This document shows, piece after piece, positions 44,271-52,419 of a stretch of DNA of 64,000 nucleotides. Under the pieces are notes generated by a model. It had not been told where the DNA came from, did no database searches, and saw only the letters and a list, made by a program, of their open reading frames with translations. Source of the DNA: the human T2T-CHM13v2.0 reference genome, Homo sapiens; the NCBI RefSeq assembly GCF_009914755.1, contig NC_060927.1; one strand, given 5' to 3'. How positions within the stretch are numbered: position 1 is the first letter of the stretch; each line of letters opens with the position of its first letter. The translations under genes were made by a program, and so were the position numbers.

Positions 44271-47200
44271 GAACATGTTTTACAATTATTTTTACCAAAA
44301 AGATAATAACTGAAACTGGTCTTTTCACTGGACACATGCACCCTCCTGCCTAGCAGAATGCGCATTGGCGGGTATCCTGGAGAAAGAGTAGGGGCAGCAT
44401 GACTCAAGACAGCCAGAGTGAACATCCCATGAGTTTCTGTAAAATTTCAGTATATTGCACATATATACACATACATATGTACATATTTGCTATAAAGCAG
44501 TTCATGTACACCCGGTTAAATGGATGTGCCAATTATATTATTCAGTTTTAACTAAATTAACAATAAAAAGGTAGACAAGTACCTTATAGATTCCGGCCAA
44601 AAAAAAAAAATAGAATTATACATAATACTAATAACCAGGAGCAAAAAAAAAAAAAAAAAAGTCAGTGTGATTCTGCTCCCCAGCTTCCTCAGTCACATTA
44701 TAATGTTAAAAACAATGCCAAGTTAAATACATTTGAAAACCAGCTAAAAATAGTGAAATTGTGAAAACTACTACTGTTAAATGAATCTTACTATGTATTT
44801 TGCTTGATATTTTAGCAAGAAATACTAGGAAGCCATCACAATTAGCATGAAAATTTAAAACTAAGTACCCACAAGAGAAAATTAAAATTCTTTATTTCAT
44901 GTGACTCTCAGTCCAGTACTTCTCAACATTTAAGAAACTAAATGACAAATATTCAGAAGCCCCTGTGAGATTTCATATTTTACAGTAAAAGTCAGAAAAC
45001 CACAAACCATTGGGGAAAACACTTTTCTTCCCACGGTAAAAACAGCTGAAATAATATATTAAAACCACCACCAAAAAAAAAAAAAAAAAAAAAACTGAAA
45101 TTTTATTTTTATCAACAAAAGTTACACTGTCAATTTTAGAAATATTGCAGAAAAGTTGAAGCAGTAAATATTAAAACAAATACATTGTGGAGGTTGAATC
45201 CCAGTATAGTTATTTCAAAACGGACTCCACTCATGATCCAGATTCTGTTCCTATGAAGAAATATTCAAATAAGGTGGCAGGACCAGCTTGCAGCTCCCGC
45301 TAGAACAGACAGAAGAGTGTGTGGAGATACATTGTGAACATTTGCTCCAAGAACTACCACAGCAACATACCAGGAAGGCTGAGAGCATCCATAGACCCTT
45401 TGAAGGAACTGAATTGCCACTGCAAGCTCCCTGAGATGCCAAAAAACTGTGAGTTGGCTTGCTTTCTCAGCAGGGAGGCTGGTGGTCCAGGGCAAGTTCT
45501 CAGCACTGGTCACTGGCTCCTCTACTAGAGTCGGTGCCGCTGGGGAGCACAGTGGGAGTGAGACTGGCCTTTAGGACTGCAGGCTGCATGAGAGTAGGGT
45601 GAGGCCTATGACTGCCAGCTTTCTCCCACTTCCCTGGTGACCTGCGTGACTCAGCAGATGCAGCCGTAATCCTCTGGGAACATAACTCCACTGGACTGGG
45701 AACCACACCCCCATCCCTCACAGCAGCCACAGCAAGCCCTGCCCAAGGAGAGTCTGAGCTCAGACATGCCTATACCTGCCTCCACCTGGTAGTCTTTCTC
45801 TGCCCACCCTGGTTGCTGAAAACAAAGGATATAATCTCTTGGGCGCTCTATGGCCCTGCCCACCACCTGAGAAACCTGAATACTTAACCTGGCAACGCTA
45901 AGGCAAATTTGCATCCTCCCTATAGTATCACAGGCAATGCACTTTTGAAAGCGCCACCTCCTGGCTGGAGGTCAACCAACACAAAACAAAAATATAACCA
46001 AGGACCCAAGGACCAAGGCCCACTTCACTCCCCTGCTACCTCCACCAGAGGAGGTGCTGGTATTCACAGCCGAAAGACATAAAGATGGATCACATCACAG
46101 GACTCTTTGCAGAGATTCCTCAGTAGCAGCCCTGAGCCCAGTAGCTCTGCTGGGTGGCTAGACCCAGAATAGCAAAAACAATCACCGCAGGTTGGCTCTC
46201 AGGAGGCCCCATCCCTAGGGGAAGGGTGAGAACAGCACATCAAGAGAGCACCCTGTGGGACAAAAGAATCTGAACAGCAGCCCTTGAGTCCCACATCTTG
46301 CCTCTGACATAGTCTACCCGAATGAGAAGGAACCAGAAAAACAATTCTGGTAATATGACAAAACAAGGTAGATTAACACCCCCAAAAGATCACCAGCTCA
46401 CCAGCAATGGATCCAAACCAAGATGAAATCTCTGAATTGCCAGAAAAAGAACTCAGAAGGTTAATTATTGAGCTAATCAAGGAGGCATCAGAGAAAGGTG
46501 AACTCCAAATTAAAGAAATCAAAAACATGATACAGGATATGAAAGGAGAAATCTTCAATGACATAGATAGCATAAATAAAAAACAATCGCAACTTCTGGA
46601 AATGAAGAACACACTTAGAGAAATGCAAAATGCACTGGAAAGTCTCAGCAATAGAATCAAACAAGCAGAAGAAAGAATTTTAGAGCTCGAAAACAAGGCT
46701 TTCAAATTAATCCAATGCATCAAAGAAAAGAAGAAAGAATTTTTAAAAAATGAACAAAGCCTCCAAGAAGTTTGGGACTATGTTAAGCATCTAAACCTAA
46801 GAATAATTGGTGTTCCTGAGGAAGAAGAGACATGTAAAAGTTTGGAAAACACATTTAAGAGAATAGTCAAGGAAAATTTCCCCAGCCTTGCTAGAGATCT
46901 AGACATCCAAATATAAGAAGCTCAAAGAACAACTGGGAAACTCATCACAGGAAGATCATCACCTTGGCACACAGTCTTCAGGTTATCTAAAGTCAGGACA
47001 AAGAAAAGGATCTTTAGAGCTGTGAGGTAAAAGCATCAGGTAACCCATGAAAGAAAAACTATTACAGTAACAACAGATTTATCAGTAGAAACTCTACAAG
47101 CCAGACAGGATTGGTGTCCTATTTTTAGCCTCCTTTAACAAAATAATTTTCAGCCAAGAATTTTGTATCTGGCGAAACTAAGCTTCATAAATGAAGGAAA

Positions 47201-48334
47201 GACACAGTCTTTTCCAGACAAACAAATTCTGAGAAAACTCGGCACTACCAAGCCGGCATTATGAGAACTGCTAAAAAGAGCTCTAAATCAAAACAAATCC
47301 TTGAAATACACCAAAATAGAACCTTTTTAATGCATAAATTTCACAGGATCTATATAACAATAATACAATGAAAAAAGAAACAAGGCATTCAGGCAACAAA
47401 TAGCAAGATGAATAGAATAGTACCTTCACATCTCAATACTAACGTTGAATGTGAAATGGCCTAAAGGCACCACTTAAAAGACAAAGAATGGCAGAATGAA
47501 TAAAAATTCACCAAACAAATTTCTGCTGTCTTCAGGAGAGTCACCTAACACATAAGAACTCACATAAACTTAAGATAAATAAGTAGAAAAAGATATTCCA
47601 TGCACATGGACACCAAAAGTGAACAGGAATAGCTATTCTTATATCAGACAAAACAAACATTAAAGCAAGAGAAGTTTAAAAAGACAAAGAAGGACATTAC
47701 ATAATGATAAGAGGACTAGTACAACAGGAAAATATCACAATCCTAAATATGTATGCACCTAATACTGAAACTCCCAAATTTATAAAACAATTACTGCTAG
47801 TCCTAAGAAATAAGACAGATGTCAACACAATAATAGTGGGGGATTTTAATACTCCACTAACAGCACTAGACAGGTCATCAAGACAGAAAGTCAACAAAGA
47901 AACAATGGACTTAAACTATACCCTAGAAAAAATGTATGTACAAGACATTTACAGAACATTCTACCCAACTACTATAGAATATACATTCTATTCATCAGTA
48001 CATGGAACATTCTCCAAGATGGGCCATATGATAAAGCACAAAATAAGTCTCAGTAAATTTTAAAAAATCGAAATTATATCTAGCACTCTCTCAGAACACA
48101 GTGGAATAAAATTGGAAATCAACACCAAAAGGAACCCTCAAAACCATGCAAATACATGGTTATTAAATAATCTGCTCCTGAATGATCATTGGGCTAACAA
48201 TGAAATCAAGATGGAAATTTAAAAATTCTTTGAACTGAATAATAGTGACACAAGCTATCAAAACCTTTGGGATACAGCAAAAGTGGTGCTAAGAGGAAAG
48301 TTCATAGCATTAAATGCCTACATCAAAAAGTCTG

Positions 48335-48630
48335 GGACGGGCGCAGTGGCTCATGCCTGTAATCCCTGCACTTTTGGGAGGCTGAGGCGGGTGGATCACA
48401 AGGTCAGGAGATCGAGACCATCCTGGCTAACACGGTGAAACCCCACCTCTACTAAAAAATACAAAAAATTAGCTGGGCGTGGTGGCATGCACCTGCAGTC
48501 CCAGCTACTCGGGAGGCTGAGGCAGGAGAATGGCATGAACCTGGGAGGCAGAGCTTGCAGTGAGCTGAGATCATGCCACTGCACTCCAGCCTGGGCGACA
48601 GAGCGAGACTCCGTCTCAAAAAAAAAAAAA
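48335..48630 (+). mobile_element. AluY inserted in L1PB1 ORF2
   Basis: AluY diagnostics; TSD AAAAAGTCTG. Confidence 0.95.
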
Positions 48631-51087: not shown

Positions 51088-51952
51088 GGAACAAAATAAT
51101 GACATTCACAGCAACCTGGATAGAATTGGAGACTATTATTCTAAGTAAAGTAACTCAGGAATAGAAAATCAAACATTGTATGTTCTCACTCATAATTGAG
51201 AGCTAAGCTCTGAGGATGCAAAGGCATAAAAATGATACAATGGACTTTGGAGACTCGGGAGAACAGGTGGGACGGAGCTGAGGGATAAGACTACACACCG
51301 GGTACAGTGCACACTGCTTGGGTGATGGATGCATCATAATCTCAAAAATCACCACTAAAGAACGTATTCATGTTACCAAGCACCACGTGTTCCCTAAAAA
51401 TCTATTGAAATAAAATTTAAAAAAATAAATACTAAGATAAAAAAGAATGCCCTTTTCATAAAACTGGGTTCCAACTGTTTGCTTCAAGAAGTGAAAATTT
51501 TTCTTGCATTTTAACTGTGAATTTATCCTGAACTAGATACCTAATAAAATTATTTTTAATGGATTGTTTAAAAAAATTGAAAAGGAAACCATTTTGGAGG
51601 AAGAGGTAGATTTTGCTTGAAACAGGCAACCTACCAATTTTAAATGATCAAGAACCACACAGAGAACTGAGCCCAGTTAAAGAGTTAATAAAATAAACAG
51701 CCTTTTTGGGGGGACAACTTAAAGATTTTAACATAAAAAGTAATAATCTTACTTTTACATAAAATGCAGAGACAGATTTTCTTTTTACAGGACCAGGTCA
51801 AACAAAAGACCTGGAGGGGGTCGTGCGAAGCAAAGGAATAGGGTCATGTTTGATCCAAATGACTTCAGGCCCAGCAAAGGACTCAGTTCTGATGAGACCA
51901 CAGCAATCTTCTGGGTGAATTCCAAGCCACTTCATTAACAAATCAAAGCTCC

Positions 51953-52365
51953 ACAACAGCAAAGATATGAAATCGACCTGGGTGTCCATTAGTGAATAAA
52001 TGGATAAAGAAAATGTGGCATATAAATATAACGAAATAATAGCCATAAAAACAATGAAATCATGTCTTTTGCAGCAACATGAATGAAAGTGGAGGCCATT
52101 ATCCTGAGTGAAACAAGCCAGGCACAGAAAGACAAACATTGCATGTTCTTATTCATAAGTGGGAGCCAGAAAATGTGTTCATGTGGACGTAGAGTGGGAT
52201 GAGAGATAATGGAGACTCAGAAGGGTGAGGGGTGGGAGGAAGGATGAGAAACTGGTTAACGGGTGCAATGTATGTTATTCTGTTGATGGATAACTTAAAA
52301 GCCCTTACTTGACCACTATACAATCTATGCATGTTTACCCCCAAAATTTGTACAAATAAGAAAAA
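51953..52365 (+). mobile_element. L1PB4-like 3' end fragment
   Basis: AAAAGCCCTTACTTGACCACTATACAATCTATGCATG...TGTACAAATAAGAAAAAAA. Confidence 0.8.
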
Positions 52366-52419
52366 AAGAAATATTCAAATAATTACCTTTTCTATGAGTC
52401 ACTAAAGAACAGATATGCT

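What the first reader, a model, noticed from the sequence alone, without database searches (positions are those of the whole stretch)
45256..52382. Apparent ancient L1PB1 3' transduction: the TSD encloses about 0.9 kb of extra DNA
Seen: the 17-mer AAGAAATATTCAAATAA lies immediately 5' of the L1PB1 (45256-45272). Its perfect copy is not after the L1's own A tail (about 51430) but at 52366-52382, after about 520 bp of non-repeat-looking DNA, an L1PB4-like 3' end and a second A tract. Known: L1 transcripts read through their weak polyA signal and carry 3' flank to new sites, and L1PB4 is older than L1PB1. Inference: 51430-52365 came from the donor locus, and transcription ended at the older L1 fragment's polyA. 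Caveat: an A-rich 13/17 match (AATAAATACTAAGATAA) also follows the first tail.
Basis: partly seen in the sequence, partly recalled or inferred. Interest (0 to 1): 0.8.

Follow-up and report, generated by a model that had tools for sequence, protein, structure and literature searches.

The report
Ancient L1 with two-step 3' transduction
An old full-length L1 retrotransposon in a ULK4 intron carried along about 0.9 kb of DNA picked up in two steps from two other chromosomes, which is a well-known L1 behaviour seen here in an unusually old and clean example.

Summary
The 17-mer occurs exactly twice in the window, at 45256-45272 and 52366-52382. It brackets a full-length + strand L1 (45273 to about 51418) and 0.94 kb of extra DNA.

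The extra DNA is low-copy and has two parts.
- Part A (51445-51568) has one paralogue, on chr1 at 85.559 Mb. Homology stops about 20 nt after an AATAAA, and the window then has A7 where chr1 has none.
- Part B plus a 5'-truncated older L1 3' end (51577-52360) has one paralogue, on chr2 at 131.039 Mb, which has a segmental-duplication twin. It shares the same L1 truncation point and flank.

Copy-versus-source divergence matches the age of the L1 family.

Neither source locus carries an L1 today, so both donors must have been lost. The main rival is a reverse-transcriptase template-switch chimera.

I could not run the outgroup empty-site test, because no other mammal genome was on hand.

This is a known mechanism in an old example, so interest is low. 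One oddity remains: a perfect 18-bp tandem duplication lies exactly at the chr1 source boundary.

The parts
45256..45272 (.). 5' copy of the 17-bp target-site duplication; target reads TATG|AAGAAAT
   Evidence: Exact match, one of only two in the window. It directly abuts the L1 family's 5' terminus.
45273..51418 (+). It carries two later Alu inserts at about 48334-48635 and 50803-51082. Its own AATAAA is at 51409-51414.
   Evidence: Pfam matches in order on the + strand: ORF1 trimer and RBD in 46377-46913, endonuclease in 47680-48060, RT in 49206-49836. It is colinear end to end with three other genomic copies apart from Alus and small indels.
51419..51444 (+).
   Evidence: Sequence. Other L1 copies end here. 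Chance level of the 13/17 match is given.
51445..51568 (+). Part A, the first transduced segment. It contains AATAAA at 51543-51548 and ends 20 nt downstream of it.
   Evidence: Single paralogue at G000:C1:85559164-85559618, interrupted there by a later Alu. Identity is 52 of 56 and 74 of 81 aligned bases. Homology ends at GGATTGTT, after which chr1 continues ACTGAG.
51570..51576 (+). A7 run between part A and part B, read as the remnant of the first poly(A) tail. Its last 3 A may instead be templated by chr2.
   Evidence: Absent from chr1. chr2 has only AAA at this point.
51577..51951 (+). Part B, the unique part of the second transduced segment
   Evidence: Single paralogue at G000:C2:131038988-131040070, with two later Alus in chr2 and an inverted segmental-duplication twin at C2:130948467-130949554. 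Identity is 113 of 126, 59 of 70 and, together with the L1 end, 536 of 629 aligned bases. There was no Pfam match in 5 ORFs lying wholly or partly in the extra DNA.
51952..52360 (+). It was carried as part of the chr2 flank and ends in AATAAG.
   Evidence: All 18 other family copies lose homology to the window upstream of 51950-51959 but continue among themselves. The chr2 copy has the same truncation point and flank. The window and chr2 copies are sisters in the tree with 97/89 support.
52361..52365 (+). Short A tract, the final tail
   Evidence: Sequence. Homology to chr2 ends here.
52366..52382 (.). 3' copy of the 17-bp target-site duplication
   Evidence: Exact match.

Best explanation
A single L1 retrotransposition event, antisense to ULK4, inserted a 7.1-kb RNA copy. 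That RNA was a full-length L1 with two 3' passengers picked up one after the other.

Step 1 (inferred): an active L1 sat on chr1 just upstream of G000:C1:85559164. Its transcript ran past the L1's own AATAAA and was polyadenylated 20 nt after the next AATAAA, so it gained 125 nt (part A).

Step 2 (inferred): that L1 plus part A inserted on chr2 at TGTTT|AAATTTG, at G000:C2:131038988. It was transcribed again and read through 0.79 kb of flank (part B and an older truncated L1 3' end). The transcript ended at that old L1's A-rich end.

Step 3 (shown by the TSD): this RNA was inserted by target-primed reverse transcription at TATG|AAGAAAT in the ULK4 intron, and this created the 17-bp duplication.

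Only the last copy became fixed. The two donors were never fixed or were later lost.
For: (1) An exact 17-bp TSD flanks the whole unit and nothing smaller. The 5' copy abuts the family's true 5' end.

(2) Each passenger has just one source-like paralogue in the genome, on a different chromosome.

(3) Part A stops 20 nt after a canonical AATAAA. It is followed by A7 in the window but by ACTGAG on chr1. That is the mark of a polyadenylated RNA end.

(4) The chr2 homology starts at a good L1 endonuclease site (TTT|AAAT) and stops at the old L1's A-rich end. The chr2 flank beyond that point is unrelated to the window.

(5) The old L1 fragment shares its truncation point and 5' flank with chr2 only, whereas 18 of 18 other copies differ. 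It is sister to the chr2 copy with 97/89 support, a stem of 0.027 and tips of 0.12 and 0.11. It therefore travelled as genomic flank and not as active L1 RNA.

(6) The ages agree. Copy versus source is 77-93% identical. Copies of the main L1 family are 80-87% identical to this one. The small L1 fragment belongs to a more diverged, hence older, family at 74-79%.

(7) The 5' part is a complete coding-type L1, as cis-preference predicts.

(8) Multigenerational transduction cascades are documented for modern L1 (PMC13009371, passage read).
Against: No L1 lies upstream of either source segment in this genome, so both donors are hypothetical.

No intermediate or sibling copy carrying only part A was found: the search gave 3 candidates, namely the window itself and the two pieces of the chr1 locus.

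Part A is less diverged from its source (about 8% mismatches) than part B plus the old L1 (about 14%). This is the reverse of the expected order, though part A is short and the chr2 region is a segmental duplication.

The second read-through had to pass an AATAAAATAAA at about 51688.

A 4-5 nt microhomology (TGTT) at the part A/part B joint would also suit a template jump.

The final signal is AATAAG with only a 5-7 nt A run.

The empty site in outgroups was not examined.
Confidence: 0.7

Rival explanations
1. Template-switch or RNA-ligation chimera. Reverse transcription started on a polyadenylated chr2 transcript that ended at the old L1's tail. It jumped to the poly(A) end of a chr1 transcript, then to the poly(A) tail of an active L1 RNA, and copied that RNA to its 5' end. 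The result is one insertion with one TSD, and no donor L1 ever sat on chr1 or chr2.
For: No L1 lies at either source locus. Every joint sits at an A run, and there is TGTT microhomology at the A/B joint. L1 chimeras with other RNAs, including double jumps, are described (10.1101/2025.02.02.635956, passages read; PMC2104539, search listing and abstract start only).
Against: Described chimeras have the active L1's own 3' end at the 3' side and the foreign RNA at the 5' side. Here the 3' piece is genomic flank from chr2, and the active full-length L1 is the 5'-most piece. This route needs a start in trans on a non-coding RNA, two jumps that each land on a poly(A) end, and independent transcription and polyadenylation of two non-genic stretches. 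L1 read-through supplies exactly those RNAs without extra assumptions.
Confidence: 0.17
2. Two nested events. A chimeric retrocopy (part A, part B and the old L1 end) inserted first and made the 17-bp TSD. The L1 later inserted exactly at its 5' joint and re-used the same 17 bp as its target. The 13/17 match at 51424-51440 would then be its decayed 3' TSD.
For: A 13/17 look-alike of the 17-mer lies in the first tail.
Against: Under this scheme the younger pair of copies would differ at 4 of 17 positions while the older pair is identical. The look-alike is 4 nt short of the part A start, and the flush 17-mer matches at only 10 of 17 positions (my count by eye from the sequence). The look-alike is at chance level for an A-rich tail, at 10% of shuffles. 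The scheme also requires re-use of both nick positions, and it still needs an unexplained chimeric retrocopy.
Confidence: 0.03
3. The extra DNA is ordinary local intron sequence, and the second 17-mer is a chance repeat or belongs to another element.
For: None beyond the A-richness of the 17-mer.
Against: The chance of the exact 17-mer at a given place is 2e-9. Both parts have paralogues whose homology ends at poly(A)-type boundaries.
Confidence: 0.01

Closest known systems
L1 3' transduction (read-through of the weak L1 poly(A) signal; the classic descriptions are recalled and were not read here; population maps in PMC9311842, passages read)
   Same: One TSD encloses the L1, its A tail, a unique flank and a second A tail. 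The flank ends after a poly(A) signal. The source paralogue lies on another chromosome. At 125 and 790 bp, the segment lengths fall within the reported 7-997 nt range.
   Different: The element belongs to an extinct, roughly 15-20% diverged L1 family and not to L1HS. No L1 is left at the source loci.
Multigenerational (serial) L1 transduction cascade (PMC13009371, passage read)
   Same: The insert keeps the 3' tag from a first source and adds a second tag from the intermediate insertion, in that order.
   Different: In the published case all three loci are observed. Here both upstream generations are inferred only from the empty source sites.
U6/L1, Alu/L1 and mRNA/L1 chimeric insertions (10.1101/2025.02.02.635956, passages read)
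   Same: Several unrelated RNA-derived pieces lie in sense orientation inside one TSD.
   Different: In those chimeras the foreign piece is 5' and the active L1's truncated 3' end is 3'. Here the full-length L1 is 5', and the 3' L1 piece is old genomic flank shared with chr2.

Membership tests
L1 3' transduction | A single target-site duplication encloses the L1 plus the non-L1 DNA at its 3' side | tested here: met
   Exact 17-mer at 45256-45272 and 52366-52382 only. The 5' copy abuts the family's 5' terminus.
L1 3' transduction | The extra DNA begins right after the L1's own poly(A) signal and tail | tested here: met
   The L1 AATAAA is at 51409-51414 and the A-rich tail runs to 51444. Other copies end at 51408-51461.
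L1 3' transduction | The extra DNA ends in a poly(A) signal and an A tract just before the 3' TSD | tested here: met
   AATAAG at 52355-52360 and an A run at 52361-52365, then the TSD. The signal is a variant and the tail is short.
L1 3' transduction | The extra DNA has a source copy elsewhere, and homology ends at the poly(A) site | tested here: met
   chr1 for part A, and chr2 for part B plus the old L1 end.
L1 3' transduction | An L1 of the same family lies directly upstream of the source copy | tested here: not met
   There is no L1 match upstream of either source within 8-9 kb. This does not exclude membership if the donors were never fixed, but it leaves the donors unproven.
L1 3' transduction | The orthologous empty site in outgroups joins the flanks with a single copy of the TSD | not testable with these tools
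   Only the window's own genome was available. No other mammal genome was on hand.
Serial (two-generation) transduction | Two segments from different loci, each closed by its own poly(A) signal and A run, with the older tag nearest the L1 | tested here: met
   Part A has AATAAA at 51543-51548 and A7 at 51570-51576, and comes from chr1. Part B with the old L1 end comes from chr2.
Serial (two-generation) transduction | An intermediate or sibling element carries only the first tag | tested here: not met
   The part A search returned only the window and the chr1 locus, from 3 candidates, all scored.
L1 chimeric retrocopy (U6/L1 type) | The 3' L1 piece derives from the active L1 RNA that drove the event, and the foreign RNA is fused at its 5' side | tested here: not met
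   The 3' L1 piece shares its truncation point and 5' flank with the chr2 locus and belongs to an older family.
L1PB1 / L1PB4 subfamily names | Match to the subfamily consensus in a repeat library | not testable with these tools
   No Dfam, Repbase or RepeatMasker was available. Only relative age is shown: 82-87% pairwise identity for the main L1 3' end against 74-79% for the small fragment.

The most novel reading that the evidence does not exclude
The perfect 18-bp tandem duplication on chr1 (G000:C1:85559138-85559180) can be framed to begin exactly at the inferred donor joint, CATG|AGGAAT. It may be the pair of target-site duplications left behind when the first donor L1 was removed cleanly. 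That would mean a full-length L1 can be lost while both TSD copies stay, a footprint not known for LINEs. It would also mean the chr1 locus was once filled in the human lineage.
Probability: 0.07. Interest if true: 0.6.

Novelty: new member of a known kind. Interest (0 to 1): 0.25.

Why it matters
This locus gives a clean, datable three-locus pedigree (chr1 to chr2 to chr3) for an L1 lineage that went extinct tens of millions of years ago. It shows that serial read-through transduction worked in that family as it does in L1HS. It also shows that both active parents left no fixed copy, which fits the view that active L1 masters are short-lived alleles.

For the ULK4 intron itself it explains 7.1 kb of sequence, including the L1 5' UTR that RefSeq lists as an enhancer. 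No new mechanism is involved.

Tried and rejected
- A sensitive self-comparison of 51431-51960 against the whole window, on both strands, found nothing better than E 0.036. The extra DNA is therefore not diverged or inverted L1, and twin priming is rejected.
- Pfam gave 0 families for five ORFs of at least 50 aa lying wholly or partly in the extra DNA, so it is not a coding retrocopy.
- I considered that parts A and B might be an interspersed repeat. I rejected this because the genome search gave only 3-4 candidates, all scored, that is one locus each plus a segmental-duplication twin. The tool skips very common words and is not exhaustive.
- I considered the reverse direction, with chr1 and chr2 copied from chr3. 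I rejected it because the chr1 copy has no A tail and no flanking repeat, and because both homologies end exactly at the A runs of the window.
- A MAFFT alignment across the chr1 Alu misaligned. I replaced it with piecewise local alignments.
- One literature search for clean L1 excision or empty sites with both TSDs listed 10 of 68 papers. Judged by title and abstract start only, none addressed a TSD-TSD footprint.
- No search was made for prior description of this particular ULK4 insertion.
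Full report
**Observation.** The 17-mer AAGAAATATTCAAATAA occurs exactly twice in the window, at 45256-45272 and 52366-52382. The other four matches allowed 2-3 mismatches. From base composition, the chance of this exact word at one given place is 2e-9. Reading the sequence gives this layout:
- the 5' TSD copy;
- an L1 starting at 45273;
- the L1's own AATAAA at 51409-51414;
- an A-rich tail to 51444;
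- about 0.5 kb of other DNA;
- a second L1 3' end from about 51952 to 52360;
- a short A tract at 52361-52365;
- the 3' TSD copy.

**The L1.** Pfam finds the L1 ORF1 trimerisation and RBD domains in 46377-46913, the endonuclease in 47680-48060 and the reverse transcriptase in 49206-49836. All are on the + strand and in the canonical order.
- *5' end.* A genome search with 45173-45572 scored 40 of 1073 candidates. Of the 39 non-self hits, 25 begin homology at query base 100 (window 45272) and 37 begin at query 96-109. The family's 5' terminus therefore abuts the TSD.
- *3' end.* The same test with 51200-51520 shows that all 39 other copies stop at window 51408-51461. None continues into the extra DNA.
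- *Body.* Three other genomic copies are colinear with 45272-51430, apart from small indels and two Alu inserts in the window copy at about 48334-48635 and 50803-51082.

The element is full-length and lies antisense to ULK4.

**The extra DNA is low-copy and has two parts.** It has no similarity to anything else in the window on either strand. Whole-genome searches found only 3-4 candidates each, and all were scored.

*Part A (51445-51568)* matches only G000:C1:85559164-85559618, where a later Alu splits it. Identity is 52 of 56 and 74 of 81 aligned bases. Homology ends at GGATTGTT, 20 nt after a canonical AATAAA (51543-51548). The window then has A7 (51570-51576), whereas chr1 continues ACTGAG. 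That is the signature of a polyadenylated RNA end.

*Part B plus the second L1 3' end (51577-52360)* match only G000:C2:131038988-131040463 and its inverted segmental-duplication twin at C2:130948079-130949554. The match is contiguous once two later Alus in chr2 are set aside. Identity is 113 of 126, 59 of 70 and 536 of 629 aligned bases, with 17 gap events in the last block. On chr2 the homology begins at TGTTT|AAATTTG, a good L1 endonuclease site. It ends in the old L1's A-rich end, after which the two flanks are unrelated.

**The small L1 piece travelled as chr2 flank.** I fetched 18 other copies of its family with 200 bp of extra sequence on each side.
- All 18 lose homology to the window upstream of 51950-51959.
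- They continue to match one another upstream, many through most of the added 200 bp.
- The chr2 copy breaks at the same point as the window copy and shares part B.

In a maximum-likelihood tree of the 20 copies, the window and chr2 copies are sisters. Support is 97/89, the shared stem is 0.027 and the tips are 0.12 and 0.11, against a median tip of 0.13. The two are therefore one old insertion and its later copy.

**Ages agree.**
- Copy versus source is 77-93% identical by BLAST, or 8-15% mismatches.
- Other copies of the main L1 family are 80-85% identical to this one at the 5' end and 82-87% at the 3' end.
- The small L1 piece is 74-79% identical to its relatives, so its family is older. 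This is what a passenger that pre-existed in a donor's flank requires.

**Interpretation.** Everything 3' of an L1's poly(A) inside one TSD must have been reverse-transcribed before the L1 body, from the same RNA or after template jumps.

The simplest account is two successive 3' transductions. First, an L1 on chr1 read through to the next AATAAA and gained part A. Next, that L1 plus part A inserted on chr2 and read through 0.79 kb to the old L1's end. Finally, this RNA inserted in ULK4. A modern multigenerational cascade of this kind is described (PMC13009371, passage read). The segment lengths are within the range reported for human transductions (PMC9311842, abstract passage read).

**What speaks against it.**
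- Neither source locus has an L1 upstream now, so both donors are inferred. From general knowledge (recalled, not checked here), most active human L1s are low-frequency alleles, so lost parents are not surprising.
- No sibling carrying only part A exists in this genome.
- Part A is less diverged than part B, the reverse of the expected order. However, part A is only 125 bp, and the chr2 region is a segmental duplication.
- The second read-through passed an AATAAAATAAA near 51688.
- A TGTT microhomology lies at the A/B joint.

**Rivals.**
- *Template-switch or RNA-ligation chimera.* This would give the same final sequence without donor L1s. However, described chimeras put the active L1's 3' end at the 3' side (10.1101/2025.02.02.635956, passages read). 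This case would also need a start in trans and two jumps onto poly(A) ends. I give it about 0.17.
- *Nested insertion that re-uses the same target.* This relies on the 13/17 look-alike at 51424-51440. That match is at chance level (2051 of 20000 shuffles; 5 of 104 other A-rich 36-mers). It is also not flush with part A. I give it about 0.03.
- *Chance repeat.* This is negligible.

**Unexplained.** The chr1 source locus holds a perfect 18-bp tandem duplication, plus 7 nt of a third unit, at L012 8138-8180. The window has a single unit directly after the L1 tail. The unit can be framed to start exactly at the inferred donor joint, CATG|AGGAAT, which resembles the real chr3 target TATG|AAGAAAT.

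Perfect non-simple tandem duplications with units of 14-30 nt are rare. There were 2 in the 98 kb scanned, this one included. Slippage between the 7-nt direct repeats is the dull explanation. A TSD pair left by a lost donor L1 is the bold one.

**Limits.**
- No other mammal genome was available, so the empty-site test was not run.
- No repeat library was available, so the subfamily names are unverified.
- The genome search scores only the best candidates and skips common words, so "single paralogue" means none found at this sensitivity.

**Verdict.** The finding is real. It is a known mechanism, in a tidy two-generation form and in an old L1 family.

Noticed in passing
L012:8138-8180 (G000:C1:85559138-85559180): A perfect 18-bp tandem duplication, plus 7 nt of a third unit, lies exactly at the 5' boundary of the chr1 source of part A. 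The window has one unit. It can be framed as two TSD copies with no element between them. Only 2 such duplications were found in the 98 kb scanned.
   Followed up: partly
window 45131-46330: The RefSeq 'enhancer' feature given in the hub's annotation covers the 5' TSD and the first 1.06 kb of the L1 (5' UTR). The listed enhancer activity therefore sits largely in L1 promoter sequence.
   Followed up: no
window 48334-48635 and 50803-51082; also 52417-52727: Two Alu elements inserted into the L1 body after it arrived, and a third Alu lies 35 bp downstream of the 3' TSD. The chr1 and chr2 source loci each also gained Alus inside the homologous stretches (one and two respectively).
   Followed up: partly
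L002/L003 (G000:C2:131038988-131040463 and C2:130948079-130949554, opposite strands): The chr2 source locus lies in a recent inverted segmental duplication about 90 kb apart. The two copies gave identical scores against the window.
   Followed up: no
window 51684-51697: A tandem AATAAAATAAA lies inside part B and was evidently not used as a poly(A) site by the transduced transcript. On chr2 an Alu later inserted right at this spot.
   Followed up: no
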